DNA from: a virus | IMG/VR virus record: IMGVR_UViG_3300043449_001497 | Span: 8,744-72,743 of that record | DNA: 64,000 nt | Direction: 5' to 3' (one strand) | Shown here: positions 13,707 to 46,377 of the stretch, piece by piece | Numbering within the stretch: position 1 is the stretch's first letter | How the letters are laid out: each line of letters opens with the position of its first letter | Notes under the pieces: model-generated | Told to the model about the DNA's origin: nothing | The model's database searches: none | What the model saw: the letters and a program-made list of their open reading frames with translations, nothing else | Program-made: the position numbers and the translations under genes

Positions 13707-14696
13707 ATGACCACAGAGAACCCGACCGTCATGGTCGCCGTGTACGGCAAGCCGAAGAAGAAGAAGACCAGCGACGTGCTGGCCGCCTTCCCGACGGCCC
13801 TGTGCATCGGCGTCCCCAGCGCCATCACGCTCGTTGCCCAGAACGAGCTGGGCTTCACCCCTGCCATCTACCCGACGCCGCCCCAGACGCTCCCTGAGCT
13901 CGTCGGGCTGCTCGAGTACCTGGGCCAGTCCGGCATGGCCGCGCAGTACGGCGCGGTCTTCATCGACGACGCCAGCCACATCTGCGACCGCAGCATCACG
14001 ATGTGGCACGACGAGGCGCCCGTCGGCAAGAGCGGGAAGAAGGACAAGTTCTACGCCTACCAGCAGCTGAACAAGTACCTGCTCGCGCTCTCGGGCATGG
14101 CCCGCCACATGGGCATCCACCTCATCTTCACCTTCCACGAGCGCGCTCCCGGCACCGACCAGGACGGGTTCTTCCAGCCGGGCGGTCCGTCGCTCGGCTC
14201 GAGGAAGCAGACCGAGTCCTTCCCCTCCTGGTGCGACATCAACGTCCGCGCCATGATCGACTCGAGCTACCCCGACCCGTGGTTCCCCGGCGTCTACTTC
14301 TGCGACCCCACGTCGCCGGAGTGGGTCACGGGTGACCGCACGGGCGTGTGCTGGACGAAGACCCCCGGCAACCTGCGCGAGATCCTCCGTGCCTCCGCCG
14401 GGGGCTACAAGCTCGCGCGCGTCGCGGGGCTCGAGTGGCAGGACGACATCGCGGACGAGCTGGCGAAGATGATCGTGGAGACCGGGGACATCAACGGCTC
14501 CATCAAAAATCTTTCCCAGTCAAATCCGCGGTTTACGGACGGGACGGAACAAATCCATCTCCGTTGGGCTTGCCAGGATGGTATTGCCCGCGCTACCTTC
14601 ATGAAGCGCAAGGCGAGGAACCTCTTCGACCTCGCGCCCAAGGAAGAGCCCAAGAAGGGTGGCGGCGTTCCGCTTCCTCCCCCTCCCACGGCCTGA
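13707..14696 (+). CDS. Sak4/AAA_24-like recombination ATPase with degenerate Walker A
   Basis: VAVYGKPKKKKTS, VFIDDAS and IFTFHE; lies between the nuclease and SSB. Confidence 0.65.
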   Translation: MTTENPTVMVAVYGKPKKKKTSDVLAAFPTALCIGVPSAITLVAQNELGFTPAIYPTPPQTLPELVGLLEYLGQSGMAAQYGAVFIDDASHICDRSITMWHDEAPVGKSGKKDKFYAYQQLNKYLLALSGMARHMGIHLIFTFHERAPGTDQDGFFQPGGPSLGSRKQTESFPSWCDINVRAMIDSSYPDPWFPGVYFCDPTSPEWVTGDRTGVCWTKTPGNLREILRASAGGYKLARVAGLEWQDDIADELAKMIVETGDINGSIKNLSQSNPRFTDGTEQIHLRWACQDGIARATFMKRKARNLFDLAPKEEPKKGGGVPLPPPPTA

Positions 14697-34763: not shown

Positions 34764-34796
34764 GTCTTCCTCTCGATGTTGACGGGTGACTCGGTA

Positions 34797-34848
34797 CTAG
34801 ACCGACTCAGACGCACCGTCGTTGAACGATGCGCCTGCGGCGAGCTAG
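34797..34848. repeat. CTAG-bounded intergenic palindrome, copy 1
   Basis: CTAG-acCG-ACTCAG-ACGC...GCGC-CTGCGG-CGag-CTAG. Confidence 0.8.
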
Positions 34849-35105
34849 CGTTGGTTGAGGTTGGCCTCGTCGAGCTCGAAGGCTCGAACGAGGGCGGCGG
34901 CTACAAGGTCCGCCTGCAAGTTGCGGAGGTCTGCTGCCTGCGTGTCGCGGGAGCTGAAGTAGACAGCCTGCCCGTCCATGACGACGGTGTGGAAGTCCAC
35001 GTCGAGGGCTTCCAGCGCACGCCACACGGCAGTCCGCTGGATGTGCGTGAGGTTGTCGAACACGATCACGGTGTCGCCCGTGGGACCAGGAATGACTGCG
35101 GACAT
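34845..35105 (-). CDS. Hypothetical protein
   Basis: RBS gagg. Confidence 0.55.
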   Translation of the reverse strand: MSAVIPGPTGDTVIVFDNLTHIQRTAVWRALEALDVDFHTVVMDGQAVYFSSRDTQAADLRNLQADLVAAALVRAFELDEANLNQR

Positions 35106-35115
35106 GGTGTGCCTC

Positions 35116-35418
35116 TCAGTAGATGGTGATGCGGGCGTCCCGCAGCTTGAACCGGACGGGCTCACCCTTGAAGTCGGTGACCCAGCTTTCCTCTTCGTAG
35201 CGGTGGCCCGTGACGTAGACCGGGAAGTCGTTGTACGGGTCGTCGGGGCACTCGAAGCCAGCGATGATGGCGTCCCCGGTGAAGTCGACGCTCTCGACGT
35301 GGACGGTCCACCCGACGAGCCGGGAGAGCGTCGCACGCACGGTGTCGAGGTCGGGCCCGTCGACGGCGAACCCAAGGTTGAACCCGAACCAGCGGGCGGG
35401 CGCGGTGTTGTCGGTCAT
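35116..35418 (-). CDS. Hypothetical protein
   Basis: ggaggcaagcATG start. Confidence 0.6.
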   Translation of the reverse strand: MTDNTAPARWFGFNLGFAVDGPDLDTVRATLSRLVGWTVHVESVDFTGDAIIAGFECPDDPYNDFPVYVTGHRYEEESWVTDFKGEPVRFKLRDARITIY

Positions 35419-35633
35419 GCTTGCCTCCTAGCTGGCTGGCTGCCAGCCATGTTGATGTAGTCTGAGGTTGACACGGTGTCAAGACCCTGCGCGTCGAGGT
35501 TCCGGGCAGCCTGGTACATGATGGCTGCGTGCGGGTTCCCCAACAGGTCGACGACGAGGACGAAGTCCACGTCGCGGATGGTCATGCCCCGGCACTGCTC
35601 GAAGATGCGTTCCAGCGCGTCCTCGTAGGTCAT
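35415..35633 (-). CDS. Hypothetical protein
   Basis: ATGA-coupled. Confidence 0.45.
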   Translation of the reverse strand: MTYEDALERIFEQCRGMTIRDVDFVLVVDLLGNPHAAIMYQAARNLDAQGLDTVSTSDYINMAGSQPARRQA

Positions 35634-35914
35634 GCCACACCCCCACGCATCACTGCGACGAGGTCGAGGGTCGCGGGGTCCGCTGCCAGCGCGGCGAGCC
35701 GCTTGGCGTTGAACCGGGTCGCCTTCTCGAGGCTCTTCCACTCTGCTGCCCCCAAGGGGTAGCCTCGCACGCCGCCGCCAAGGTCGCGGTACGGGGCCAC
35801 GAACACCGCGTACACACCGTGACGGTAGGTCAGGTAGGCGTGGACGTGAGTCGTGTCGTGCTGGTCGTTGACCTGCTCTTCGTCGAGCAGGTTGATGGAT
35901 CGATTGTCGTTCAT
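35630..35914 (-). CDS. Hypothetical protein
   Basis: ggaggcaagtATG start. Confidence 0.6.
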   Translation of the reverse strand: MNDNRSINLLDEEQVNDQHDTTHVHAYLTYRHGVYAVFVAPYRDLGGGVRGYPLGAAEWKSLEKATRFNAKRLAALAADPATLDLVAVMRGGVA

Positions 35915-35930
35915 ACTTGCCTCCTTCGGT

Positions 35931-35989
35931 CTAGACCGACTCTGATGCCGCGAGAGAGGCTGTCCCTCGCGGCACCAGCGGCGAACTAG
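35931..35989. repeat. CTAG-bounded intergenic palindrome, copy 2 (59 bp)
   Basis: CTAG-acCG-ACTCTG-ATGC...GCAC-CAGCGG-CGaa-CTAG. Confidence 0.8.
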
Positions 35990-36189
35990 CCCAGCACGTC
36001 GCGGAGGATGGGGTCTTCCTCCGCGCGGCGGTTGCTCTCAGTGTCGAGGTCGCGGGCTGCCTGAAGCAACCGCGCGAGGTTCCCATCCATGCCCGCCTCG
36101 TCGGCGAGGTCGGGGTCCACCTTGTGGAAGGTGGAGTAGCTGGCGGCGCGCTCCACGATGCGCCCCAGCGTCTTCAGGTGTCGGCTCAT
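35986..36189 (-). CDS. Hypothetical protein
   Basis: RBS ggagg. Confidence 0.55.
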   Translation of the reverse strand: MSRHLKTLGRIVERAASYSTFHKVDPDLADEAGMDGNLARLLQAARDLDTESNRRAEEDPILRDVLG

Positions 36190-36557
36190 GCTGCACCTCC
36201 CGGAAGGGCGGCGACAATCGCACGAACCGCGGCGACGACTACGGGGACGTCGTCGTGAACGTCGGCACGAAGCTCGCCTAGGCTCACGGCGTGGAGCGGG
36301 TCGAACCACAGTCGGCGCTCCCCGTTGTAGGGGTCCAGCTCCAGCTTGCGGTCGAGGACGAGGTCCACGACTACGGGACTCTCGTCGAGCTCTGCGCCGG
36401 ACCCACGGGGCCACACGCGAAGCTCCCAGCCCTCGTCCCCGTAGACGGAGACGACGCCGTCGGAGTCGTCGCTTGCGTCGATGCCCGCTGCGTTGAGGGC
36501 GTGGGCGATGACCTCACCCGCTGCCAAGATGGCGGCGTCCAAGTCTTCCGCGCTCAC
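36186..36557 (-). CDS. Hypothetical protein
   Basis: GTGA-coupled. Confidence 0.55.
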   Translation of the reverse strand: MSAEDLDAAILAAGEVIAHALNAAGIDASDDSDGVVSVYGDEGWELRVWPRGSGAELDESPVVVDLVLDRKLELDPYNGERRLWFDPLHAVSLGELRADVHDDVPVVVAAVRAIVAALPGGAA

Positions 36558-36697
36558 GGGGTCACCCCCACCAGCGTCCAATCGAGAGCCAGGAGGAAGA
36601 GACCCCCCGCCACGATGAACACCCAGGCTACCACCTCGACGAGAGGCCAATCGATGGGGGACGGCCGCCCCATCCGGGTTACTCTGTACTTTGCCAT
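36554..36697 (-). CDS. Small membrane protein (47 aa)
   Basis: RBS ggagg; TM segment VVAWVFIVAGGLFLLAL. Confidence 0.5.
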   Translation of the reverse strand: MAKYRVTRMGRPSPIDWPLVEVVAWVFIVAGGLFLLALDWTLVGVTP

Positions 36698-36721
36698 GTT
36701 GTCCTCCGGGTTGTTGATGTT

Positions 36722-36780
36722 CTAGGTCGACTCAGATGCAGCGAGAGGTGTTGCCCCTCGCTGCACCTGCGGCGGTCTAG
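36722..36780. repeat. CTAG-bounded intergenic palindrome, copy 3 (59 bp)
   Basis: CTAG-gtCG-ACTCAG-ATGC...GCAC-CTGCGG-CGgt-CTAG. Confidence 0.8.
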
Positions 36781-37082
36781 TACAGTCCAGCCTCTGCCAG
36801 CTTGGCAGCCAGCTTCTCGAGCCGCTCCATGGTGCGGACCGGGATGGGCCGCTCCCAAGGGTCGCTAAACGTGCCCTCGTTCAGGGCGAGCGTGAGGCTC
36901 GCGCTGAAGCAGTGCACCTCGCTTCCGTCGCGCAGGTCTGCGCTCACGAACCAATCCTGTCGCCAGCCGGGCTGGCCCTCAGGACCCACGTCTCGACCGT
37001 CGGGCAGGGGCCCGTCGGGCTCGACGTTGTACACCCCGATGCGATGCACCTTGACCAGCGGGTGCGGATGCTCGCCCGTCAT
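36777..37082 (-). CDS. Hypothetical protein
   Basis: Coupled ORF. Confidence 0.55.
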   Translation of the reverse strand: MTGEHPHPLVKVHRIGVYNVEPDGPLPDGRDVGPEGQPGWRQDWFVSADLRDGSEVHCFSASLTLALNEGTFSDPWERPIPVRTMERLEKLAAKLAEAGLY

Positions 37083-37315
37083 GCGACCACCACGACGGAC
37101 TCGCCGTCCACGGTGTAGTCGCCCGCCGCCAGCTTCCTCACTGCCTTCTCAGGCAGCGAGGGAAACATGGCGAGGATGAAGTGCCGCTTCGCTCCAAGGT
37201 CGGAGCGCGCGCCCTTCACGTCACTGCGGCGCAGATGCCGGACCCAACTGACCACACCCGGAGTGTAAACCATCGGGTTGCTGGCCAGCGTGTAGGTCGT
37301 CTTCTCGCTCTTCAT
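37079..37315 (-). CDS. Hypothetical protein
   Basis: RBS gagg. Confidence 0.55.
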   Translation of the reverse strand: MKSEKTTYTLASNPMVYTPGVVSWVRHLRRSDVKGARSDLGAKRHFILAMFPSLPEKAVRKLAAGDYTVDGESVVVVA

Positions 37316-37322
37316 GTGAACC

Positions 37323-37544
37323 TCAGTCGTTGAAGGTGGTGAGCTTGGCGGCGCGCTCTTCAGCTTCCGCCACCTGTGCGGACGTGAGCGTCTCCCGGAT
37401 GTCGCATGCGAGCATCCCGAAGCAGCACCACTCCTCGATGCTCTCGAACTGCTTCTCCGCGCAGATGTTCGCGGTGAGCACCTCCTGAGCGATGCGGACG
37501 AGCCGCTCGTACAGGTCACGGTTCACGGTGATTGTGTCTTCCAT
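37323..37544 (-). CDS. Hypothetical protein
   Basis: ggaggacaagcATG start. Confidence 0.55.
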   Translation of the reverse strand: MEDTITVNRDLYERLVRIAQEVLTANICAEKQFESIEEWCCFGMLACDIRETLTSAQVAEAEERAAKLTTFND

Positions 37545-37682
37545 GCTTGTCCTCCAGCGGGGCAGCGTTCCGTTCGCCCCTGTGCCCATCCATGCAGGAC
37601 ACGACGTCCCAAGCGCGCTGCGCGCCGGGATGGGGGCCACTCAGGGCTGGCCGCTTCACCCAGGGGGAGACGGCTCCCCCGT

Positions 37683-38285
37683 TCACTCGTCGTGCGCCGC
37701 CTTGAGAATGCCGCGCACCCTGTCCACGACCTCGCTCAGGGGGAGGTCGAGGGCCAACTCGTCGACGTACTCGTACGCTCCGCCATCGTACCGCAGGGTC
37801 ACGATGTCAGCGGTGAGCGCGTTGCGCTCGTCGAGGTCGATGCTCACCCGCAGTTCGCAGGTCTCGAACCCCCACAGGACGCGCACCCGACCGTCACCGT
37901 AGTGCGTGCAGGGGATGCCCGCACGCTGCATCTCCACGGCCAGCGTGGCACCCGCACTGTGACAGAGCACGTCGTGCTTCTCCGCCTCGCTGATGGCCTC
38001 ACGGAGGGCCGCGGCGGGCTCGAGTTCCGGGATGGGGAACTCACGCAGGTAGCGGGCGAGGAACACCTCGACCTCTTCCATCCAATCGTGCGTCTCGCCC
38101 CACTCGACGTCGGCGTACACCCGCTGGAAGGCGAGCGTGCACCCGACCACGTAGTCGGCGAACTCCACGACCGGGAGGTCGACGCCCGATGCGCTCAGCA
38201 TCCCCCACAGTTCGCGGGAGAACGCCGCCGCCGTCGCGCCATCCACGGGACGCACCCACGCCGGGGTGATGTCGTTCGTCTTCAT
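37683..38285 (-). CDS. Hypothetical protein
   Basis: ggaggcaagcATG start. Confidence 0.6.
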   Translation of the reverse strand: MKTNDITPAWVRPVDGATAAAFSRELWGMLSASGVDLPVVEFADYVVGCTLAFQRVYADVEWGETHDWMEEVEVFLARYLREFPIPELEPAAALREAISEAEKHDVLCHSAGATLAVEMQRAGIPCTHYGDGRVRVLWGFETCELRVSIDLDERNALTADIVTLRYDGGAYEYVDELALDLPLSEVVDRVRGILKAAHDE

Positions 38286-38364
38286 GCTTGCCTCCGTGGC
38301 AGACTCTGAGCGCTCGCCGCCGGGCCTGCCAGCCGGACGGCACGCCGCACCACCGGGGTACAGG

Positions 38365-38394
38365 ATTGTACCACCGTGGCACGCAATGAAGCAA
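38365..38394 (-). promoter_or_regulatory. Sigma70-type promoter
   Basis: TTGCTT-18-TACAAT with a TG extension. Confidence 0.55.
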
Positions 38395-38749
38395 ACATAC
38401 CATGCACTCACGACGTTTCGCTTAGTCCCACCGAACCGGGCTTTCGCAGTCACGGCACGGGTTTACGCGGCAACTAGGCGTATCGCACTGTCGCACATGG
38501 TAGACCCCCTTTACATGTAGATGCACTTACATGTAGGGGCTACACGAGGGAGATGCAGGTAGGGTATATGCACTAGGTGGATACAACCGTATGTCTCTCT
38601 ATGCTCTCGTCATCGTTCAGCTTTCGCCGAACGGTGGGTCTAGCGATAGCTGGAGGCTATCGCAGAGGCGGGACCCATAGGCCCAGCCTATCGAACGGTC
38701 GACCCATACCGACCCACCGCGTGAACGGTGAGCCGGGATTGAACGGCCG

Positions 38750-39571
38750 TCACACGACGGGCGCACCCGTCTGAGCGTCGCGGACGAACCCGCTACGGTC
38801 CGTGCGCGCCTTGCCCTTGGCACGGAGCAACACCACGTGACCGGGAGGGTCAAGGTGGCGCAGGTCCGTCTCGTCGCCATCCACAGTCGGATAGCCCATG
38901 AACGTCGACGGCACAGGCTTGCCCGCCTTCACGTTCACGACGACGGCGACGTTGCCGCCAGCCGCCAGCACGCTGCGAGCGATGGCCTCGCGACCCGTGC
39001 CGCGGTCGAGGCTGTACGTGTACCGCACGCCGTCGACCGTGCCCGCACGCCCACGTGCCGGGTCTTTCGTGTAGTCGTACCGCACGGCCTGAGACGGCAC
39101 GCGCAAGCCGGGGAACACGGACTCCCAATGAACGTCGCTCGTACCGTTGAGCCGGAACGAGACCGATAGCTCGAGGCTATCGGCCCACGCTGCGACGTGC
39201 GCCATGTCCCGTTCGAGGTGAGCGCGGAAGGCTTCCGGCTCGCGGTCGAACATGCGCGTCCGCTTGTAGCGGCCGTGCTGCACGTTGTTGGCGAACGCGC
39301 GGCCTGCGTAGCTGGACATCGGGATGCCCCCACGGCCAGCCGTGTTGAGACACGACGCAGCGCACGCACCAGCCCACGGGCACAGGTTGCCCAGCCCAGG
39401 CACCTCGCCGTTCAACACGGCGAGCCGGGCGTACTCACGCGCCGGGAGCAGATGCAGGACCGCCGTCACCTCGCCGCGCTTCCCACCCTTGGCAACCTTG
39501 GGGTTGTCCAGCGTGAGCAGCTTGAGCTTGGACTTACAGGCGTTGAACCCTGCGAACTCGTACGTCTTCAT
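38750..39571 (-). CDS. GP88-like protein (radical-SAM-like Cys motif)
   Basis: CPWAGACAASC, RLNGTSD, YDYTK, DGDETDLR and LRAKGKA. Confidence 0.7.
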   Translation of the reverse strand: MKTYEFAGFNACKSKLKLLTLDNPKVAKGGKRGEVTAVLHLLPAREYARLAVLNGEVPGLGNLCPWAGACAASCLNTAGRGGIPMSSYAGRAFANNVQHGRYKRTRMFDREPEAFRAHLERDMAHVAAWADSLELSVSFRLNGTSDVHWESVFPGLRVPSQAVRYDYTKDPARGRAGTVDGVRYTYSLDRGTGREAIARSVLAAGGNVAVVVNVKAGKPVPSTFMGYPTVDGDETDLRHLDPPGHVVLLRAKGKARTDRSGFVRDAQTGAPVV

Positions 39572-39584
39572 GCTTTCCTCCTGA

Positions 39585-40100
39585 GATGCTGGCAGCCCAG
39601 CGTATTGCTGGCTGCCCCGGATATCCGGGCTCAACCCAACGACGCGGTAGCCCCGCTGGGTTGAACGCGAATATCCGCGCGTACACGGACCGTGGCTGTG
39701 CTCACACGGGCGGGCACCACATGCCCGCGGGGGCAACGGTGCGGCTTTCGCTAAGCGGCTGCGAGGATGCCACGCATACAGGCGTACGCGCTGATATTCG
39801 GGGAGGTGTGGAGCCTATCGGCACGGGGTCCGCATTGCCATGTCCGGGCAACCGGGCGGCCTTCTTCCCGACGGTTTCAGTCGGGGGCTAGGTGTCCACT
39901 GCCTAGCTGCGAGGGATGCGCGCGTCTCACGACGTGACGCGCTCGCAGCTAGTGCTACCATCTGTATGCGAATGTGAAAGACACGGGCGACACGCTGCCT
40001 TGAAACCGACCTTGCAGCCGGGGCACCGTGCCGGGTTTCCCCGTCACACTGCTAGCATACCATGACGGTATGAACCCGTCAAGGGACGCTAGCGGTCTAA
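39585..40100 (-). ncRNA. Candidate large structured RNA or leader
   Basis: About 500 nt without a credible ORF; many stems, GNRA loops on the minus strand, directly downstream of a promoter. Confidence 0.5.
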
Positions 40101-40174
40101 GCTCTGAAAGAGCGGGGCCGGGGCCCCTGAGGGCCTGAGCCCCCGTGGTCGGCGTTTCCGCTTCCCACGCTTTC

Positions 40175-40203
40175 AATATGCCCCGTTCCTACCACGGCGT
40201 CAA
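40175..40203 (-). promoter_or_regulatory. Early promoter C
   Basis: TTGACG-17-CATATT, followed by a boxA-like CGCTCTTTCAGA at 40103-40114. Confidence 0.7.
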
Positions 40204-40511
40204 GGTCTCACGGGCTGCCCGTCACACGGGCGCGCGACGCACGCCTGACCCGGCCGCGGGCCCGCTGGCGGCCGCTGCCCCTCAGGCGGCGGGCCGCCCT
40301 CTGGAGCCGCCGCACTCCACCCCTCCCTCCTCCACCCTCTCCGGCTGTTCCACCCTCTCCGGCTATACAGGGTCCCCTGACGGGGACCATTGAAGAGACG
40401 CACTGAGAAGCCCCAGGAGCTCGACGCCAGGGGGAGGGGCTACCTGGGTAGCACCCTGTCCTAGATCGTTGCTCCTGGGGCTTCCCAGTGCGGTTCCTGC
40501 GGGGTCCAATG

Positions 40512-40547
40512 GAAAGGCCCCCGAGGAGAGGTTCCTCGGGGGCCGGG
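40512..40547 (-). terminator. Terminator of unit A
   Basis: GC stem followed by ctttc on the minus strand. Confidence 0.6.
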
Positions 40548-40552
40548 ATGAG

Positions 40553-40750
40553 TCAGAGACTGTGGAACTTGGCTTCGGATTCGACCAGCTGGTTGAACCG
40601 AGCCCGGTCGGGCTCGGCTGCGCCCTCGAGGAAGAGTTCCCCGGTGACGACACCGCGGTCGCGGGTCAGGGTGGCGGCGATGATGAAGTAGCCCTTGCTC
40701 TTGTAGTTGTAGACGAGGTAAGCCCCGTCGTCGAACCGATGAATGAACAT
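40553..40750 (-). CDS. Unit A ORF3, hypothetical
   Basis: ggagacaagcATG start. Confidence 0.6.
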   Translation of the reverse strand: MFIHRFDDGAYLVYNYKSKGYFIIAATLTRDRGVVTGELFLEGAAEPDRARFNQLVESEAKFHSL

Positions 40751-40811
40751 GCTTGTCTCCAGAGAGTGGGAGACGGGCCAGGCCGAGGGCACCTGACCCG
40801 TCTCGAGTGGG

Positions 40812-41036
40812 CTAGCTGATGTAGCGGATGACCACGATGCGGGTACCATCTGCGCGGCGAATCACGAGGCGCTTCTTGTAGCCGCGACCGATGTTGATCG
40901 CGCTGTAGTAGAACCCTGCCTGTTGCGGCGTGTCGAGCGTGAAGCGGGGCTTGTATGCACCGCGGTAGCGTCCGACCTCGACGTGATAGGTGTCGCCGTC
41001 TTCCCACTTGGTGATCTTGCCATCGATGTTGAACAT
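40812..41036 (-). CDS. Unit A ORF2, hypothetical
   Basis: ggagacaggcATG start; YSAINIGRGYKKRL. Confidence 0.65.
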   Translation of the reverse strand: MFNIDGKITKWEDGDTYHVEVGRYRGAYKPRFTLDTPQQAGFYYSAINIGRGYKKRLVIRRADGTRIVVIRYIS

Positions 41037-41085
41037 GCCTGTCTCCGATTGAAAGCGGGGGCCACGGGCACCCCCATTGATTGAA

Positions 41086-41301
41086 CTAGACCGAACCGTA
41101 GGTGCTGTGAATCAGCGTGCCGCAGTCGCATTCGATGGGATCGCCTTCCGCGAACTCACCGCACCGCACGGTCTCGCCGTTGCGGAAAGCGTCCTTAGCG
41201 CAGGCCACGCAGACCGGGGCGTGCCGCACGATATGCAGGACGTTGACGATACCGTAGTGGACATTCTTAATGTGCTGAATGTCCGTGATAACTTCGAGCA
41301 T
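41086..41301 (-). CDS. Unit A ORF1, Cys-rich hypothetical
   Basis: ggagtcaagcATG start; CVAC...CDCG. Confidence 0.6.
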   Translation of the reverse strand: MLEVITDIQHIKNVHYGIVNVLHIVRHAPVCVACAKDAFRNGETVRCGEFAEGDPIECDCGTLIHSTYGSV

Positions 41302-41444
41302 GCTTGACTCCACTAGAGTGAGGGGGAGACACGCTAGGCGACGCTTGCCGCACGCGGGGCGTCGTCACTACCATGCTATGGGGTTGTGAAAGAGCGGCGG
41401 GACCGAGGCCCCCCGTCAGGTCCGCTTCCGTTCCTGACATCTAC

Positions 41445-41473
41445 AGTATGCCCCGTCTAGTGCATGGTGTCAA
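41445..41473 (-). promoter_or_regulatory. Early promoter A
   Basis: TTGACA-17-CATACT; boxA-like CGCTCTTTCACAAC at 41383-41396. Confidence 0.75.
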
Positions 41474-41678
41474 GGTGGGAACGCTACAGGCCCGGATAGG
41501 GCGCGTGACGGCCCGGCGCACGGGTCCGGCCCCGCTTGCGCGCGGGCTCGCTCATGCGACGCCCCGCCCTCCAGCCGTGTCGCCACCCTCTCCGGTACTA
41601 CCACCCTCTCCGGCATACAGAGCCCCCTGACGGGGGCTGCTAGAAGAAGAGCTCGAGACCAGGACCGAGCGGACATGA

Positions 41679-41716
41679 GAAAGCCCCCGAGATCCTGGGG
41701 GGACCTCGGGGGCGGG
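41679..41716 (-). terminator. Terminator of unit B
   Basis: GC stem followed by ctttc on the minus strand; homologous to 40512-40547. Confidence 0.6.
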
Positions 41717-41721
41717 ATGAT

Positions 41722-41925
41722 CTAGCCGACGATGAACTCGTCGCGGCCACGGTAGACGAAGCCGGAGAGGAACTCAGGGCTGACGAGCTTGTAGAGCGGG
41801 GTCGTCTCGTCGGGGACAGCCCCGACCGTGCAGACCATGTCGAACTCGTTCTTCTTGAACGCCGTGCTGTAGGTGCGGACCTTGCGACCGACCGTGACGC
41901 GGCAGAGAGGCGGGTAGAACCGCAT
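41722..41925 (-). CDS. Unit B ORF3, hypothetical
   Basis: RBS ggag. Confidence 0.6.
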   Translation of the reverse strand: MRFYPPLCRVTVGRKVRTYSTAFKKNEFDMVCTVGAVPDETTPLYKLVSPEFLSGFVYRGRDEFIVG

Positions 41926-41987
41926 GTGAACTCCGAAGAGAAGAGAGACGGGCCGGGCCAGAGGGCGCCCGACCCGTCTCGTGTTGG

Positions 41988-42266
41988 TCAGCTGAAGTCG
42001 AGGATGTACGTGAGGAACGCGAGCAGGATCATGGCGCCGATGTTGAGCATCACGATGCACTGCGTGATGGCGGTGCGAAGTTCACGGCGGCGGCGACCGG
42101 GGCGACGAGCCGTGTAGGTCTGAGGGCCGACGATGGGGGCGAACACGAGGGCTTCCAGTTCCGCGTCGTACTTGCGAACGTAGCGGTAACCTTCGACCAT
42201 GATGCCGGGCTCAGTGGGACGGTCGGCGTTGAGGCAGATTCCGTCGCGGCAGTTGTTGCAGTCCAT
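41988..42266 (-). CDS. Unit B ORF2, C-terminal TM protein
   Basis: ggagtagaagcATG start. Confidence 0.6.
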   Translation of the reverse strand: MDCNNCRDGICLNADRPTEPGIMVEGYRYVRKYDAELEALVFAPIVGPQTYTARRPGRRRRELRTAITQCIVMLNIGAMILLAFLTYILDFS

Positions 42267-42314
42267 GCTTCTACTCCGAGTGAAAGTGGGGCCACGGGCG
42301 CCCCTTGAGGTTGA

Positions 42315-42500
42315 CTAGTTACCAGCCTTGACGCTGAGCTTGTGAAGCTTCCGGGCGAGCCGGAAAGCGTGCCGGGTTGCGGCCTTGAGCGCCACGCGCT
42401 TAGCGTTAGCGCGGTTGCCCCACGCCTCGTCGAGGGTCGGGCCCACGGTGAGCCCGACGACGAGAGCGACGAGGTACAGGTACATCAGAGTATCGAACAT
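42315..42500 (-). CDS. Unit B ORF1, N-terminal TM protein
   Basis: ggagatgaagcATG start. Confidence 0.6.
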   Translation of the reverse strand: MFDTLMYLYLVALVVGLTVGPTLDEAWGNRANAKRVALKAATRHAFRLARKLHKLSVKAGN

Positions 42501-42635
42501 GCTTCATCTCCGAGAGTAGGGTGAGGGTCGCACGGCGTACCTGCTAGGGCAGGGGCCGGGTGACCGAACCAGCGTATGGGGTTGTCAGAGAGCGGGGCGG
42601 GGAGGGCGTTTCCGTCGTTCCCTTTCCGTGCATAC

Positions 42636-42664
42636 AGTATGCCCTGTCTAGTGACAGGTGTCAA
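42636..42664 (-). promoter_or_regulatory. Early promoter B
   Basis: TTGACA-17-CATACT; boxA-like CGCTCTCTGACAAC at 42581-42594. Confidence 0.75.
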
Positions 42665-43002
42665 GCGTCAATGCGATAGCCCCCGAATAGACATGGCTCG
42701 CGGGCGCGACGCCCTTCCGACGACGCCGACGCCCCCGTGCGACCGCGCTTCTCGCTGGCGACGCCCCGCCCTATAGTAGTGGCGCCACCAACATCATCAA
42801 CAACCCCCTACACCCCAACAACAACCATCATGGGACCCAACTCCCCCTGTCCTCTTCCTGGCGAGTAAAAAATCCCAAATCCCCATACCACCGGGGTACG
42901 CCCACTACGTGGCCGCACCATGCGTGGATGACGCGAGGTCCGCGATGGCGTGGCCACTCACAGGGACCGACGTTATACCCCCTTGGTCTACCAGGAGCCC
43001 CC

Positions 43003-44061
43003 ATGAACAACGACACGAAGACCCAGGACCTCCCACTTGCCCTCCGAACCCGCAACGCCCTCCTCAAGGCGGGCCTCACGACCTGGGGACAGGTCAAGAG
43101 CATCGAGCTCACGAACGTGGAGGGCCTCGGTGCCCGAAGCATCGACGCCATCCAGGCCCTCTGGAGCGAGGAAGAAGGCCTTCCGCGACTGGTGCCGATG
43201 CCGGAGGAGGCGGAAACGCCCGAGGAGACCATCGCTCGAGGCCAGAAGCGGCACGAAGTCACGTCGATGATCGACCACGCGATGCGCGGCGGGCTCGACC
43301 GGATGACCGGAGACGTCGAGAGCCTCGAGGAACGGCGTCACCTGGACGAGGTGAAGGCCATCCACAAGCGCCAGTTCGACGCCGCGGCCGAGAAGGAGCT
43401 CAGTCGGAGCTTCGCGATGGCCGGAACGGGCAGTTTTGGGGACCCGGACGCCGAAATCCGTCGTCGCGGCGAGGCGTTTCGCGCCCAGGGCGGCTCGGTT
43501 GTGGCCGGAGACGGTCGCGGACTGCTTGCTCTTCGGCTCGAAGCCGATGTACAGGCACGAGTCTCGGCTCTTATACCCCTTATCAAGGCCCTCCCGCATG
43601 TCAAGGAGTTGGGCGTAGATGTTTCAGCGGAGATCGTGGGTCGAATGGCGCTGATTCGGGGCCTGGATGCCCTCGAGAGGGCCCACGGAGGGTCGAAATC
43701 GACCTCCAAGACCTCGGAAAACGGCGAAAACCGCGCAACCGCACCCGAAAACGCCGACGCGCCGCTCCCGACGGGCGATGAAGAGGTCTACGACACCCCT
43801 GAAGGGTGGACGAAGGTCGGTTTGGGCGAGACGATCCCGGTTCCGGAGGCCGTTTTGCACGATTACTACACCCAGAACGGCTGGGTGCGGTACTGGGGCA
43901 AGGCCAACGACCAGGTGATCTACTTCTACTGGTCTCCGGAGCGCCGTTTGCAGGACCTCAAGCCCTTCCCAGGCACCGACAAGAGCGGTCGGTCGGTCGC
44001 AGTGCAGGAAACGCCCTGGGGACCGGGCCATGTGGTCCCCTCGAGGTGGGCGAACAGCTGA
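43003..44061 (+). CDS. Protein with N-terminal RNA polymerase alpha-CTD-like (HhH) domain
   Basis: LPLALRTRNALLKAGLTT...LTNVEGLGARSIDAI; RBS aggag. Confidence 0.7.
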   Translation: MNNDTKTQDLPLALRTRNALLKAGLTTWGQVKSIELTNVEGLGARSIDAIQALWSEEEGLPRLVPMPEEAETPEETIARGQKRHEVTSMIDHAMRGGLDRMTGDVESLEERRHLDEVKAIHKRQFDAAAEKELSRSFAMAGTGSFGDPDAEIRRRGEAFRAQGGSVVAGDGRGLLALRLEADVQARVSALIPLIKALPHVKELGVDVSAEIVGRMALIRGLDALERAHGGSKSTSKTSENGENRATAPENADAPLPTGDEEVYDTPEGWTKVGLGETIPVPEAVLHDYYTQNGWVRYWGKANDQVIYFYWSPERRLQDLKPFPGTDKSGRSVAVQETPWGPGHVVPSRWANS

Positions 44062-44123
44062 ACGACGAGGGCCAGGAGTGAGGCGAACCCCGCTCCTGGC
44101 CCTGTCCGGCCTGTCAGTCTAGA

Positions 44124-44627
44124 TCAGTCGGCCTTCGCGAGCTGAAGGTAGAGGCGGAACGGAGCCACGTTCGCCGCCGTCGCCTTCAGGACCGTGATGG
44201 TCAGACTCTCGACGTCCGCCGCGAGCGGGTTGATGGTCTCCGCCTCGGGGACGTGCGTCGCGAAGACGCGCGGGGTGTTGTCCGTGTTCACCGCAGCCGA
44301 GGTCGCCTGGATGGCGGTCGCGCCAGCGATGGGAGCCGACTTGCCGATGGTCACGGTGACGTTGCCAGCGGTCGTCTCGGTCGGCACGATGCGCGTGTCG
44401 GGGAGAACGCGCATCTTGTACGGCAGCTTGATCGTGTAGACGGTGCTCGCCACGTTCAGGTTGTCGGGGACGCTGAACACAGCGCTGACGTACGCCGTGG
44501 AGTCAGCCGTGGCGAGCGTGGGCGAGACCCCGACCACGAGCGGCTGCACCGCCTGGCCAGAGAAGTGCTCCGGGATGACTTCCCCGTAGCGAATGAACTT
44601 CCGAACGATGTATCCGTACGCAGCCAT
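44124..44627 (-). CDS. Putative virion decoration/structural protein
   Basis: RBS aggagg; beta-rich, Ala/Thr/Val-rich. Confidence 0.5.
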   Translation of the reverse strand: MAAYGYIVRKFIRYGEVIPEHFSGQAVQPLVVGVSPTLATADSTAYVSAVFSVPDNLNVASTVYTIKLPYKMRVLPDTRIVPTETTAGNVTVTIGKSAPIAGATAIQATSAAVNTDNTPRVFATHVPEAETINPLAADVESLTITVLKATAANVAPFRLYLQLAKAD

Positions 44628-44707
44628 GCCTACCTCCTATCTCAGGCCAGGCGAGATTGCCTGGACCTCATGGCGGTGCTATCATAGCACAACCTCTGGG
44701 GTTCCTC

Positions 44708-45100
44708 ATGCACGGAAGCATCCTCGTCATCGCGAAGAAGAAGGCCGCCGGGCCTGGTGGCTACTTCGACCCCATGATGGGTCACCCTGGCATGGCCCAG
44801 GGTCCCATGATGTTCGAGATGGCGAACGAGGAGGAGTGCTGCGAGGAGCCTCCGATGCACGAGCCGATGATGCACGGCGACATGGGCAACCGTGACGTGC
44901 GCGACATCATCGCCGACCTCCGTGCAGCGGCTCAGCGCCTCGAGGACCTCCACGGCATGGGCGCCGAGGACGAGGACACCGAAGAGGAAGAGCCCGAGGA
45001 AGAGGAGGCCCCCGAAGAGGAGCCCGCCGAGGAAGAGCCCAAGGCCAAGACCAAGAAGCCCTTCCCAGGCTTCGGCCCCAAGAAGGAGATGAAGTACTGA
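44708..45100 (+). CDS. Acidic, Met-rich hypothetical protein
   Basis: Poly-Glu tract; codon bias. Confidence 0.55.
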   Translation: MHGSILVIAKKKAAGPGGYFDPMMGHPGMAQGPMMFEMANEEECCEEPPMHEPMMHGDMGNRDVRDIIADLRAAAQRLEDLHGMGAEDEDTEEEEPEEEEAPEEEPAEEEPKAKTKKPFPGFGPKKEMKY

Positions 45101-45276
45101 TGGCCACCTACCGCAGCGGCTACTACAGCCACCTCGATGCGATGAAGAAGAAGGCCGAGATGGAAGACGCGGAAGCCCGCGGCGAGAAGCTCAAGAAGGA
45201 GGGCAAGGTCGCGGACGTGTCCGCCCTCATCAAGAAGCCCGTCGTGAAGGTCGCCGTCAAGATCGGCAAGCACTAG
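45100..45276 (+). CDS. Small basic protein (58 aa)
   Basis: TGATG overlap; MATYRSGYY...KIGKH. Confidence 0.55.
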   Translation: MATYRSGYYSHLDAMKKKAEMEDAEARGEKLKKEGKVADVSALIKKPVVKVAVKIGKH

Positions 45277-45382
45277 AGCATCTACGCATCACGACGCGGC
45301 CGTGAACGCCTGCCCCGTCGTGTGAGCCCCGGCGGCATGGTGTCGTCGGGGCTCTTCTATGCCTGGCCGGATAGCCGCGCAT

Positions 45383-45416
45383 AGAAAACGCCGGGGCAGA
45401 TTGCTCCACCCCGGCG
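45383..45416 (-). terminator. Rho-independent terminator
   Basis: cgccgggg/ccccggcg stem followed by ttttct on the minus strand. Confidence 0.7.
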
Positions 45417-45504
45417 CCGACCAAGCACACACGCACCCGTAACAGCAGGCAGCACCGACCCTGCTACACGGGAGTGTACACCACCCCCGTGGCAGAGTCA
45501 ACAG

Positions 45505-46377
45505 CTATCGACGCGGGTTGTAGAACTGCGCCTCGTCCGACTGCGCCAGGCGGCGCATCGAGTCCATGATCTCCTTGTAGGAGCGGTTGTCCGTCGCGTT
45601 GGTCGTCGCCGTGCGTCCAGGGCCCATGTTCATGAGCTCCATCGCGTCGGGGACGGGCTCCGCCTGGGGAGGCGTAGGCGGAGCGAACTTCGCGCGCACC
45701 ATCGAGACGGCGTCTTCAGGGTCGATGCCACCCGTGAGGAGCACCGAGAAGGCGTAGAAGGCGTCGTCGTTGCTGTAGATGTCGTTCGCCTCCGACTTCA
45801 TCCAGTTCTCGACCTCGTCCACGGCAGCCTCGAGCTGACGCGCCTCGGCCTGCTGGGACTCGTACTCGAACGCCTCGAGGCGCTGACGAAGCTCGTCACG
45901 CTCGCGCTCGGCCGTTCCGTACTTGCCCGTCCACTCGTCAGCCGCCCGGCGCTGGGCCTGCTCGAACTCGTCACGAAGAGCCGAGAGGGCTGCGTCGTGC
46001 ATCGTCTTCAGGCGGTCGATCTCCGCCTGCTTCTCGGCCATCGGGTCCGCGTCACCCGTGAGCCACTTCTGGATCTTGAGCTCCTGCTCTCGAAGCGCGG
46101 CTTCCTTCCGGTCCAGGTCGCGCTTGCGGCCAGCGGTGTCCTGGAAAGCCTTCGTGAAGCCGCGCTCGAAGTTCTTGTACTTGTTCTCCACACCACGGAC
46201 GAGCGTGTTGCGGGTCGGCTCGTCGATGCGGCTGAACCAGTCAGCCTTCGACAGGGCGTCCAGCTCTCCGTTCCAGTCGAAGACTTGCGGTGGCGCGTCT
46301 TCCGCGGGAGCAGCCTCTTCAGAGGCCACTTCCTCGTTGGTCTGGGGGTTCTCTTCTTCCGTGGTGGGGTCGAACAT
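45505..46377 (-). CDS. Putative capsid scaffolding protein
   Basis: Acidic N-terminus, KNFERGFTKAFQ, long coiled coil; in the portal operon. Confidence 0.65.
   Translation of the reverse strand: MFDPTTEEENPQTNEEVASEEAAPAEDAPPQVFDWNGELDALSKADWFSRIDEPTRNTLVRGVENKYKNFERGFTKAFQDTAGRKRDLDRKEAALREQELKIQKWLTGDADPMAEKQAEIDRLKTMHDAALSALRDEFEQAQRRAADEWTGKYGTAERERDELRQRLEAFEYESQQAEARQLEAAVDEVENWMKSEANDIYSNDDAFYAFSVLLTGGIDPEDAVSMVRAKFAPPTPPQAEPVPDAMELMNMGPGRTATTNATDNRSYKEIMDSMRRLAQSDEAQFYNPRR

What the first reader, a model, noticed from the sequence alone, without database searches (positions are those of the whole stretch)
40204..42664. Two tandem ~1.2-kb expression units with matching regulatory scaffolds but unrelated ORFs
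Seen: on the minus strand, units B (42664-41474) and A (41473-40204) carry the same ordered parts. These are a TTGACA-17-CATACT promoter, a CG-GAAR-CG hairpin, boxA-like CGCTCT..ACAACCCCATA, ORF1, hairpin X (GGGGCCACGGGC at about 42288 and 41058), ORF2, hairpin Y (GAGACGGGCC...GACCCGTCTC at 41945-41980 and 40770-40804), ORF3, a terminator, a CCCCTGACGGGG hairpin and two CCACCCTCTCCGG. The ORFs in matching slots show no protein similarity by eye. A third promoter-hairpin-boxA head sits at 40203. Known: mobile promoter/stem-loop cassettes shuffle genes in T4-type hyperplastic regions, and SPO1 has a repetitive host-takeover module. Inference: a three-slot gene-swapping scaffold in which slot-specific hairpins act as recombination or processing landmarks for exchanging small early (anti-host or anti-defence) genes.
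Basis: partly seen in the sequence, partly recalled or inferred. Interest (0 to 1): 0.85.

Follow-up and report, generated by a model that had tools for sequence, protein, structure and literature searches.

The report
Tandem phage early-gene units swapping ORFs
An uncultivated freshwater phage begins its early operon with two back-to-back three-gene units that share promoters, RNA hairpins and terminators but carry unrelated small genes. Related phages keep this framework while changing the genes, much as promoter/stem-loop cassettes do in T4-like phages.

Summary
On the minus strand, units B (42664-41474) and A (41473-40204) carry the same ordered parts: sigma70-type promoter, GNRA hairpin, CCGCTCTYTSACA leader motif, ORF1, hairpin X, ORF2, hairpin Y, ORF3, terminator, GUCA-loop hairpin and two 13-mers. 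A third head (40203) and a fourth promoter (40082) precede a GP88-family gene.

Scaffold parts are 74-83% identical between the units. Slot-matched ORFs show no protein similarity (Smith-Waterman z 0.3, -0.2, -0.1).

- The one close IMG/VR relative keeps the X module (96%) and the terminator plus long hairpin (89%), but has different ORF2 and ORF3.
- Contigs from four freshwater studies join across single ORFs at their borders, and one joins across a whole unit.
- The A2 family occurs in 15 unrelated phage contigs without the scaffold.

Some "replacements" are diverged homologues (an A1 variant). The hairpins look like RNA elements that also serve as islands of homology, with no sign of dedicated recombination sites: the genome has no integrase, but it has a Sak4-like annealase. 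The boxA reading is only suggestive.

The closest known system is the PeSL cassettes of T4-type phages, so this is a new variant of a known kind. Host and expression are unknown.

The parts
42636..42664 (-). Promoter of unit B (TTGACA-17-CATACT)
   Evidence: 10 of 12 consensus positions
42600..42622 (-). Leader hairpin of unit B with GAAA tetraloop
   Evidence: minimum-free-energy fold; sequence
42575..42595 (-). Leader motif CCGCTCTCTGACAACCCCATA (boxA-like), unit B
   Evidence: 18 nt identical in relative L015
42315..42500 (-). ORF B1, 61 aa; hydrophobic N-terminal stretch, read by eye as a membrane helix
   Evidence: GC3 0.84; called gene in the protein collection; no Pfam or PHROG hit
42267..42314 (-). 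X module of unit B: stop codon, hairpin X (core 42288-42304), GGAG ribosome-binding site
41988..42266 (-). ORF B2, 92 aa; Cys-rich N-terminus and hydrophobic C-terminal stretch read by eye as a membrane helix
41945..41980 (-). Hairpin Y of unit B: 14-bp stem, one U-G pair
   Evidence: -34.3 kcal/mol, z -4.4
41722..41925 (-). ORF B3, 67 aa
   Evidence: AlphaFold model of low confidence
41683..41713 (-). Terminator of unit B: 13-bp stem followed by TTTCTC
41621..41638 (-). Z hairpin of unit B: 7-bp stem, GUCA loop
   Evidence: two compensatory changes against unit A
41583..41613 (-). Two direct 13-mers CCGGAGAGGGTGG, 18 nt start to start, upstream of promoter A
41445..41473 (-). Promoter of unit A (TTGACA-17-CATACT)
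41415..41438 (-). Leader hairpin of unit A: two tiers, GAAG tetraloop
41377..41397 (-). Leader motif CCGCTCTTTCACAACCCCATA (boxA-like), unit A
41086..41301 (-). ORF A1, 71 aa, Cys-rich
   Evidence: 90% cluster of 4 members
41037..41085 (-). X module of unit A (core 41058-41074)
   Evidence: (96% identical to L004)
40812..41036 (-). ORF A2, 74 aa, family with invariant INIG.GYKKRL
40770..40804 (-). Hairpin Y of unit A: 14-bp stem, two U-G pairs
   Evidence: -29.7 kcal/mol, z -2.5
40553..40750 (-). ORF A3, 65 aa
   Evidence: (90% cluster of 3 members)
40516..40544 (-). Terminator of unit A: 12-bp stem followed by TTTCC
40384..40507 (-). Long hairpin present only in unit A, conserved in L004
   Evidence: I1; -84.8 kcal/mol, z -9.2; 89% identity
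40371..40388 (-). Z hairpin of unit A
40332..40362 (-). Two direct 13-mers CCGGAGAGGGTGG upstream of promoter 3
40175..40203 (-). Third promoter (TTGACG-17-CATATT)
40103..40169 (-). Third leader: two-tier GAAA hairpin, second hairpin, CCGCTCTTTCAGA
   Evidence: (z -3.7)
40054..40082 (-). Fourth promoter (TTGACG-17-TATGCT)
38750..39568 (-). GP88-family gene (PF17338), first conserved gene after the units

Best explanation
These are two tandem immediate-early transcription units, followed by a third bare head, at the start of the leftward early operon of a 72.7-kb, 65% G+C, probably virulent freshwater phage.

Layout of each unit:
- a host-type (sigma70-like) promoter;
- a structured RNA leader (two-tier GNRA hairpin, then the CCGCTCTYTSACA motif);
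- three small genes, each with its own GGAG ribosome-binding site;
- two intercistronic stem-loop modules (X and Y, sharing one core);
- an intrinsic terminator;
- the upstream element of the next promoter (Z hairpin plus two 13-mers).

The modules are conserved because they are working cis-elements, most likely at the RNA level. They would set 5' and 3' ends, stability, partial termination or read-through, and translation start.

Because the modules stay alike while the genes between them do not, they also act as short patches of homology. General or annealing recombination can occur at them, between co-infecting relatives and between the two units. The phage encodes a Sak4-like annealase that could do this. 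The result is replacement of single ORFs in register, and loss or gain of whole units.

Shown: the anatomy, the lack of ORF homology, the conservation of the framework in relatives with different ORFs, the breakpoints at ORF borders, and the wide spread of one slot gene.

Inferred: promoter and terminator activity, the RNA roles, the recombination pathway, and the early anti-host role of the ORFs.
For: Anatomy and statistics.

No similarity between slot-matched ORFs.
- Searches find none.
- By eye (translations), B1 has a hydrophobic N-terminal stretch and B2 a hydrophobic C-terminal one. A1 and A2 have neither.

The ORFs look real.
- GC3 is 0.79-0.84 for five of them (B1, B2, A1, A2 and the longer open frame holding A3). 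B3 was not listed there.
- All six exact products are called genes in the protein collection.
- A2 has 12 homologue clusters with an invariant motif.

Close relative L004 compared with unit A.
- X module: 96% identical.
- Terminator plus long hairpin: 89%.
- GP88 coding sequence: 77.5%.
- ORF2 and ORF3 are not alignable.
- tblastn of the six ORFs against 60 related loci gave 0 hits.

Gene families in different places.
- The L004 slot-2 gene belongs to family F4.
- Its member in this genome lies at 35630-35914, behind a different hairpin family.

Metagenome contigs from 4 runs of 4 studies.
- Of 15 listed joints, 8 skip one complete unit ORF. Seven of these have both ends within 25 nt of its start and stop. 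The eighth also takes the X module.
- 2 skip part of an ORF, 1 skips a whole unit (40544 to 41722, 1177 nt), 3 skip promoter-upstream or head segments, and 1 lies in the GP88 leader.
- One joint (42270 to 42525) carries 270 other letters in place of 254.
- Contigs of two studies bridge the B-to-A junction (X2 41368-41700, X3 41445-41716).

RNA-level structure.
- U-G pairs in the Y stems pair only on the transcribed strand.
- The Y inner stem and the Z stem show compensatory changes.
- The leader outer stems are CGUGG/CCACG, GUGUC/GACGC and GUCAGG/CCUGAC on one shared fold.

Recombination machinery: a Sak4-like annealase is at 13707-14696 (PHROG 124, E 2.4e-10). There is no tyrosine or serine recombinase.

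An analogous layout occurs in the more distant relative L031. One 100-nt module, two copies 100% identical, precedes two different ORFs, and a shorter related ribosome-binding-site motif (88% over 26 nt) precedes the first ORF.
Against: - Only one close relative is held in IMG/VR, and its contig begins inside the unit, so slot 1 and any second unit there are unseen.
- Joints were laid at 80% likeness, and most read 'between: not known'. They cannot separate replacement from divergence beyond 20%.
- By eye, the ORF1 variant in run X2 keeps the C-terminal CDCG stretch of A1. It is a diverged homologue, not a replacement.
- B2 and A2 have the highest DNA score of 28 ORF pairs under a codon-shuffle null (z 3.4). 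A very old common origin of that pair is therefore not excluded.
- The A2 homologues in 15 unrelated phage contigs have no X or Y module next to them. The first entry of such a gene into a slot needs something other than recombination at the modules.
- Hairpin X is not more stable than shuffled sequence. Its conservation is not explained by folding energy.
- There are no expression data, and the host is unknown.
Confidence: 0.6

Rival explanations
1. A plain old tandem duplication. One three-gene unit doubled, the regulatory parts stayed under purifying selection, and the six ORFs diverged beyond recognition under diversifying selection, without any cassette exchange.
For: - The A and B scaffolds are only 74-83% alike, so the duplication is old.
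- The ORF1 variant in run X2 is a diverged homologue of A1 (read by eye).
- B2/A2 DNA z is 3.4, the highest of 28 pairs.
- AlphaFold models of B3 and A3 were too poor to compare.
Against: - By eye, the hydrophobic, probably membrane-spanning stretch sits at the N-terminus in B1 and the C-terminus in B2, and is absent from A1 and A2.
- The A2 family keeps an invariant motif down to 41% identity in phages of 39-58% G+C. It does not evolve beyond recognition quickly.
- L004 has 96% and 89% identical modules around ORFs that cannot be aligned.
- The L004 slot-2 gene has its relative elsewhere in this genome.
- In run X3 a B3-like body lies between an A-type Y module and an A-type terminator.
Confidence: 0.2
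2. A dedicated site-specific cassette platform, integron-like, in which hairpins X and Y are recombination sites cut and joined by a specific recombinase.
For: - Imperfect hairpins lie just after each ORF's stop codon.
- The ORFs are promoterless within a unit.
- Breakpoints fall at the ORF borders.
Against: - No Phage_integrase or Resolvase match was found in the whole 72.7-kb record, while the controls responded in 14 and 12 of 14 genomes.
- G-U pairs work only on the transcribed strand.
- Breakpoints scatter over about 25 nt rather than falling at one position.
- The X stem has only 5 bp.
Confidence: 0.04
3. An assembly artefact: two strain alleles of a single unit were stitched in tandem through the shared repeats.
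For: The record is a metagenome assembly, and variants with other ORFs co-occur in freshwater samples.
Against: - By eye, the longest exact matches between A and B are about 12-13 nt. That is too short for assembler k-mers.
- Contigs from two other studies bridge the B tail to the A head (X2 41368-41700, X3 41445-41716).
- The two scaffolds differ by 17-26%.
Confidence: 0.03
4. The main job of the repeated heads is processive antitermination of the rrn type: a hairpin, then boxA, which loads host Nus factors. On this reading X, Y and the terminators are obstacles to be read through, and gene exchange is incidental.
For: - A GNRA hairpin followed by GCTCTTTCACA or GCTCTTTCAGA matches 10 of 11 positions of the pattern GYTCTTTAANA used for gamma-proteobacterial boxA (PMC5725501 methods passage).
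- The element has the same position in three heads, and also in L004 and L015.
- Three to four such heads stand before a 12-kb operon with many hairpins.
Against: - Two matches with at most 1 mismatch against 0.75 expected, with 19 of 100 shuffles reaching 2.
- Unit B and L015 carry C at consensus position 6. That position was one of two mutated (C4T/T6C) in the double mutant that lost SuhB association, used there as the read-out of a functional BoxA, in E. coli (passage).
- The host and its own boxA are unknown.
- No N-like protein was identified.
Confidence: 0.3

Closest known systems
PeSL (promoter-early stem-loop) cassettes of T4-type phages (Arbiol et al. 2010, PMC2839356, abstract and section 13 read; Comeau et al. 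2014, PMC4122927, abstract read)
   Same: - Repeated regulatory motifs (sigma70-like early promoter, stem-loop, Shine-Dalgarno) flank small ORFs of unknown function.
- Insertions, deletions and replacements between relatives have their ends in these motifs.
- Recombination between nearby copies deletes what lies between them.
   Different: - Here there is one promoter per three genes.
- The intercistronic modules X and Y carry no promoter.
- The region is G+C-rich, with no A+T-rich upstream tract.
- The units hold an ordered set of different modules (leader, X, Y, terminator, Z plus repeats) instead of one cassette type.
- The phage lineage is unrelated to any phage in the INPHARED copy by DNA or portal protein.
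- Mini-circles were not tested.
Lambda nut sites and the rrn boxB-boxA-boxC leader (processive antitermination; order of the boxes recalled, pattern from PMC5725501)
   Same: - A small GNRA-type hairpin and a boxA-like single-stranded motif lie in the leader just behind a strong promoter.
- Terminator-like hairpins lie downstream.
   Different: - The match to the boxA pattern is 9-10 of 11 and is not significant by count.
- No N-like protein was found.
- Nus binding is untested and the host is unknown.
RNase III processing hairpins between the early genes of T7 (recalled, no call)
   Same: Conserved hairpins sit between the cistrons of a host-polymerase early operon.
   Different: - Y is a perfect 14-bp stem and X has only 5 bp.
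- No cleavage data exist.
- The hairpins here coincide with gene-exchange borders.
Integron gene cassettes
   Same: Promoterless small ORFs, each followed by an imperfect palindrome, lie in an array behind a common promoter with variable gene content.
   Different: - There is no integrase of either family in the genome.
- The hairpins read as RNA elements.
- Breakpoints are not at one fixed position.
SPO1 host-takeover module, and the start-associated sequences of Cluster K mycobacteriophages (both recalled, no call)
   Same: Repeated promoter, ribosome-binding-site or hairpin motifs stand before many small early genes.
   Different: No evidence was recalled for in-register ORF swapping between tandem units. 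There is no sequence relation.

Membership tests
PeSL cassettes (T4-type phages) | Composite motif in which a sigma70-like early promoter and a stem-loop occur together before nearly every small ORF | tested here: not met
   Only 4 promoter-like sites in 34000-44000, all at unit heads. X and Y carry no promoter.
PeSL cassettes (T4-type phages) | A+T-rich tract upstream of the -35 box | tested here: not met
   The upstream regions are G+C-rich with G-tract repeats.
PeSL cassettes (T4-type phages) | Indel and replacement ends between close relatives fall in the motifs | tested here: met
   L004 comparison. 8 of 15 listed joints bracket one whole ORF.
PeSL cassettes (T4-type phages) | Mini-circles formed by recombination between neighbouring motifs | not testable with these tools
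   Only Logan contigs were available. Two back-joints (41910 to 40748, 42594 to 41429) carry 12 foreign letters each and fit relatives with mixed scaffolds.
PeSL cassettes (T4-type phages) | Host genome is a T4-type myovirus | tested here: not met
   No DNA or portal match to any of 50,697 phage records. The genome is 72.7 kb.
nut / rrn-type antitermination leader | boxA matching the consensus bound by NusB/NusE of the host | tested here: inconclusive
   10 of 11 positions (heads A and 3) and 9 of 11 (head B) against GYTCTTTAANA. 2 hits against 0.75 expected. Host unknown.
nut / rrn-type antitermination leader | boxB-type hairpin with a GNRA-like loop next to boxA in the leader | tested here: met
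   GAAA, GAAG and GCAA tetraloops sit on one shared two-tier fold with different outer stems.
nut / rrn-type antitermination leader | Read-through of downstream terminators that depends on the site | not testable with these tools
   No RNA run holds the stretch.
Integron cassette array | Tyrosine recombinase (IntI) with an attI site next to the array | tested here: not met
   PF00589 gave 0 matches in the whole record; controls responded in 14 of 14 genomes.
Integron cassette array | attC-type imperfect palindrome that is recombined as single-stranded DNA | tested here: inconclusive
   Hairpins follow each stop codon, but G-U pairs, the shared loop core and the closeness to the ribosome-binding site fit RNA elements.
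GP88 family (PF17338), for the flanking gene | Score above Pfam's gathering cut-off | tested here: met
   87.4 bits against a cut-off of 24.4.

The most novel reading that the evidence does not exclude
The ordered modules (leader, X, Y, terminator) form a standardised expression socket. It would be an integrase-free, phage-borne counterpart of an integron. Slot-specific RNA hairpins would both govern expression, through rrn-like Nus-dependent read-through and intercistronic processing, and keep incoming small anti-host genes in register. A population of co-infecting freshwater phages could then trade single early genes combinatorially.
Probability: 0.2. Interest if true: 0.8.

Novelty: new variant of a known kind. 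Interest (0 to 1): 0.55.

Why it matters
Small early genes are where phages keep most of their unknown host-takeover and counter-defence functions, and how they turn over so fast is only partly understood. Regulatory-cassette-mediated shuffling has been documented for T4-type phages.

This locus shows the same principle in an unrelated, uncultivated, high-G+C freshwater lineage, with a richer layout. It has multi-gene units with distinct modules per junction and natural variants that differ gene by gene.

The conserved modules give ready primer sites for sampling the pool of early genes directly from water samples. They also offer a compact set of candidate RNA elements to test: a GNRA leader hairpin with a boxA-like motif, the shared X/Y loop core, and a 124-nt long hairpin.

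Tried and rejected
**Searches that found nothing useful**
- A megablast of the region and a tblastn of the portal against the INPHARED phage copy found nothing. The DNA polymerase has only matches of 20-25% identity.
- The Rfam evalue scan of 36000-46000 gave one sub-threshold miRNA-family hit (27.8 bits against a gathering score of 73). It lies on the long hairpin and I take it as chance.
- IMG/VR pattern scans: the X hairpin gave 46 loci, the leader motif at least 119, the long hairpin 1, and the promoter pattern 3.
  - Blast with the scaffold pieces kept only the L004 contig (as L079) and L015 (as L157).
  - L444 was read and is a chance hit in a terminase/portal region. L445 had no blast hit.
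- The profile search with GP88 returned 80 distant loci (33-42% identity). None holds a scaffold piece.

The contigs behind the 17 GP88 relatives of 63-88% identity and behind the A2 homologues could not be read.
- AlphaFold gave low-confidence models for B3 (pLDDT 45.8) and A3 (59.8). No fold comparison was made.

**Expression**
- No RNA holder is listed.
- Parts of the stretch without cover are not used as evidence. Only joints and loose ends are.

**Rejected or limited readings**
- An N4-like reading (hairpin promoters for a virion polymerase) was considered and dropped. The heads are plain sigma70-type sites, and I did not test for a virion polymerase.
- The arginine-rich stretch of B2 was considered as an N-like RNA-binding motif and dropped, because it abuts a hydrophobic, probably membrane-spanning stretch.
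- Host identification was not achieved.
Supplementary Table 2 of PMC5725501 (boxA consensus) and the PeSL supplements were not seen.

Full report
**What is there**

The window is bases 8744-72743 of a 72,743-base IMG/VR virus record with 64-67% G+C, rated complete by CheckV.

On the minus strand, from 42664 down to 40204, two units of 1191 and 1270 bases carry the same parts in the same order. A third head follows at 40203 and a fourth promoter at 40082. After a leader of about 480 nt comes a GP88-family gene (38750-39568; PF17338, 87.4 bits).

Each unit reads as follows:
- promoter TTGACA-17-CATACT;
- a small hairpin with a GAAA or GAAG tetraloop;
- the motif CCGCTCT(C/T)T(G/C)ACAACCCCATA;
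- ORF1;
- hairpin X and a GGAG ribosome-binding site;
- ORF2;
- hairpin Y and GGAG;
- ORF3;
- a terminator (12-13-bp stem, then TTTC);
- a 7-bp hairpin with a GUCA loop (Z);
- two copies of CCGGAGAGGGTGG, 18 nt start to start;
- about 110 G+C-rich bases, then the next promoter.

**Is it more than chance**

- The promoter pattern has 3 hits in the window against 0.32 expected, and 0 of 100 shuffles reach 3.
- The general sigma70 scan of 34000-44000 finds 4 sites, all of them these heads, against 0.7 expected.
- The 13-mer, the Z hairpin and the X and Y patterns occur nowhere else in the whole genome.
- The core GGYGCCC-N2-3-GGCC, shared by X and Y, has exactly four occurrences in 72.7 kb. These are the four hairpins, all on the minus strand. 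A first-order Markov null gives 0.89.
- Aligned segment by segment, B and A share 28 of 37 columns in the promoter, 43 of 55 in the X module, 49 of 66 in the Y module and 48 of 58 in Z plus the repeats. Each has z 9-13, with 0 of 300 shuffles as good.

**The ORFs**

The six ORFs are B1 (61 aa), B2 (92), B3 (67), A1 (71), A2 (74) and A3 (65).

- GC3 is 0.79-0.84 for five of them (B1, B2, A1, A2 and the longer open frame that holds A3). B3 was not listed in that call.
- Each has a GGAG 7-10 nt before its ATG.
- All six exact products are called genes in the public protein collection.
- None has a Pfam or PHROG match worth naming.

Slot-matched pairs show no protein similarity.
- Local alignment z-scores are 0.3, -0.2 and -0.1.
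- blastp gives nothing better than E 0.3 in a database of nine peptides.
- By eye, B1 has a hydrophobic stretch at its N-terminus and B2 at its C-terminus. These are probably membrane helices. A1 is Cys-rich and A2 has no such stretch.

Two cautions apply. At the DNA level, B2/A2 has the highest score of 28 pairs under a codon-shuffle null (z 3.4). AlphaFold models of B3 and A3 were of low confidence (pLDDT 46 and 60). A very remote common origin of some pairs therefore cannot be ruled out.

**Context**

- The units open a run of minus-strand genes, mostly small, that extends to about 30450. Other stop-to-ribosome-binding-site hairpins occur there.
- This run converges on a plus-strand replication block: helicase, family A polymerase, primase-helicase, thymidylate synthase and a Sak4-like annealase.
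- A divergent conserved gene (42928-44061) lies upstream.
- No integrase or resolvase is present, so the phage is probably virulent.
- No cultured relative exists in the INPHARED copy.
- 59 IMG/VR loci share the portal at 60-100% identity.
- Runs from freshwater metagenomes hold parts of the stretch.

**Relatives**

The six ORFs have no tblastn hit in the 60 related loci.

The only close relative held is L004. Its GP88 protein is 78% identical. Its contig starts inside the unit next to GP88. Compared with unit A:
- X module: 96% identical.
- Terminator plus long hairpin: 89%.
- Third head: 79%.
- GP88 coding sequence: 77.5%.
- The ORFs behind X and behind Y (101 and 103 aa) cannot be aligned with A2 and A3.

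The L004 slot-2 gene belongs to a small family called F4.
- It links to L018 at E 5e-8 and to L031 at E 2e-5.
- The member of this family in the present genome links to L018 at E 1e-6. It lies at 35630-35914, 5 kb further down the operon, behind a different hairpin family.
- L004 has another ORF at that place.

More distant relatives show the theme with other sequences.
- L031 has an early promoter and three gene slots. One 100-nt hairpin-plus-ribosome-binding-site module, two copies 100% identical, precedes the second and third slots. A shorter related motif (88% over 26 nt) precedes the first. An octamer array follows, then the same promoter again before its GP88 gene.
- L015 has one head, with 18 nt of the leader motif identical to unit B, directly before GP88 and no units.
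- L011 has repeated promoters about 900 nt apart, with three small ORFs between them.

A2 has 12 homologue clusters with an invariant INIG.GYKKRL block. Fifteen IMG/VR contigs of 39-58% G+C encode it among unrelated neighbours and without X or Y modules.

**Natural variants**

Contigs of four freshwater runs from four studies were laid at 80% likeness. The probable source run was left out.

Of the 15 joints listed:
- 8 skip one complete unit ORF:
  - A3: 40547 to 40748;
  - A2: 40805 to 41034, and 40807 to 41050;
  - A1: 41106 to 41318;
  - B3: 41700 to 41931, and 41726 to 41931;
  - B1: 42312 to 42525, and 42270 to 42525. The last also takes X and carries 270 other letters.
- 2 skip part of an ORF.
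- 1 skips a whole unit (40544 to 41722, 1177 nt).
- 3 skip head or promoter-upstream segments.
- 1 lies in the GP88 leader.

Contigs of two studies bridge the B tail to the A head, so the tandem arrangement is not peculiar to this assembly.

Reading the printed loose ends by eye gives four observations:
- In run X3 the B3 slot has other N- and C-termini.
- Also in X3, a B3-like body lies between an A-type Y module and an A-type terminator.
- In X4 an A2-like end is followed directly by a terminator.
- In X2 the ORF1 variant keeps the CDCG stretch of A1. It is a diverged homologue.

There are limits. Most joints say 'between: not known', so divergence beyond 20% and true replacement are not always told apart. 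These are contigs, some of low depth.

**What the modules are**

Hairpin Y.
- It folds into 14-bp stems (-34.3 and -29.7 kcal/mol; z -4.4 and -2.5).
- It has one or two U-G pairs that would be A-C mismatches on the other strand.
- One inner pair changes from G-C to A-U between the two copies.

Hairpin Z keeps 7 pairs through two compensatory changes.

The leader hairpin keeps one two-tier fold in head A, head 3 and the L004 head. The fold has an outer stem, a purine-rich internal loop, a 2-4-bp inner stem and a GNRA loop. The three outer-stem sequences are unrelated.

These features speak for RNA structures.

Hairpin X is weak (5 bp, z about 0). It shares its loop core with Y, which hints at a bound factor rather than stability.

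The long hairpin in unit A (-84.8 kcal/mol, z -9.2) is kept in L004 (-82.2 kcal/mol, z -8.0).

The boxA reading rests on 9-10 of 11 matches to the pattern GYTCTTTAANA (passage) and on a constant position in the leader. By count it is not significant: 2 hits against 0.75 expected, with 19 of 100 shuffles reaching 2. Head B has C at position 6, one of the two positions whose combined mutation abolished SuhB association with the suhB leader in E. coli.

**How it most likely works**

The heads are host-polymerase early promoters with a structured leader. X, Y and the terminators shape the RNA through 3' ends, stability, and partial stops or read-through. They also present each ribosome-binding site.

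These modules are held constant by that function while the genes between them are dispensable and diverse. The modules are therefore the only stretches alike between co-infecting relatives and between the two units. General or annealing recombination at them swaps single ORFs in register and deletes or duplicates units. The Sak4-like protein is a candidate enzyme.

The first capture of a foreign gene such as A2 needs another route, since its homologues elsewhere lack the modules.

I put this model at 0.6, a plain old duplication with divergence at 0.2, and a dedicated site-specific system and an assembly artefact at a few percent each.

**Comparison with what is known**

The principle is that of the PeSL cassettes of T4-type phages (PMC2839356, PMC4122927). 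This locus is not a member of that family.
- The intercistronic modules lack promoters.
- There is no A+T-rich tract.
- The lineage is unrelated.

It resembles the nut or rrn leader in form only. It is a new variant of a known kind of system.

The same stretch was also noted by first readers of this scan under three other titles: the hairpin core, the promoter-boxA cassettes and the upstream element. Those notes are unchecked and add no independent support.

Noticed in passing
window 40384-40507 (minus); L004 800-935: A 124-nt, almost perfect long hairpin (22-bp uninterrupted lower stem, -84.8 kcal/mol, z -9.2) lies just after the terminator of unit A only. It is 89% conserved in L004. It could be an insulating terminator, an RNase III substrate or a small RNA. 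Rfam's weak miRNA hit lies on it.
   Followed up: partly
window 42928-44061 (plus): The divergent 377-aa gene next to the units has a weak N-terminal match to the RNA polymerase alpha C-terminal domain (PF03118, E 0.008, below cut-off). It is conserved in 25 related loci. It is a candidate regulator of the repeated upstream elements.
   Followed up: no
L028 17113-17279; L031 19449-19574; L015 about 10990-11090; window 40332-40362 and 41583-41613: Arrays of short direct repeats sit upstream of the early promoters in several relatives. Examples are the octamer CCGGCGGA at up to about 14 copies, GAGCCG-type repeats, and here two 13-mers. The sequences differ by lineage but the position is the same.
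   Followed up: no
L031 17975-18074 and 18517-18616: Two 100-nt intergenic modules (two hairpins plus a ribosome-binding site) are 100% identical in front of different ORFs. This suggests recent conversion or spread of the module within that genome.
   Followed up: partly
window 34840-36790 (minus): A third hairpin family lies between stop codons and ribosome-binding sites further down the early operon (three copies seen). One copy precedes the F4-family gene at 35630-35914.
   Followed up: partly
window 41988-42266 (B2): Residues 30-66 of B2 match repeated stretches of large proteins that carry bacterial Ig-like domains such as Big_13, Y_Y_Y and cadherin-like (E 4.7e-17 for an 829-aa protein, over 5 stretches). 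The meaning is unclear.
   Followed up: partly
window 13707-14696 (plus): A Sak4-like single-strand annealing protein (PHROG 124, E 2.4e-10) lies in the replication block.
   Followed up: no
window 39569-40053 (minus): About 480 nt without a credible ORF lie between the fourth promoter and the GP88 start. They contain a second copy of the TCTTTCACA...ATGGTAG leader motif, also found in L004 (1340-1385).
   Followed up: no
L429-L443: The A2 family (about 75 aa, invariant INIG.GYKKRL) occurs in phage contigs of 39-58% G+C and up to 106 kb, with unrelated neighbours. It is a widespread small phage gene that had no PHROG match.
   Followed up: partly
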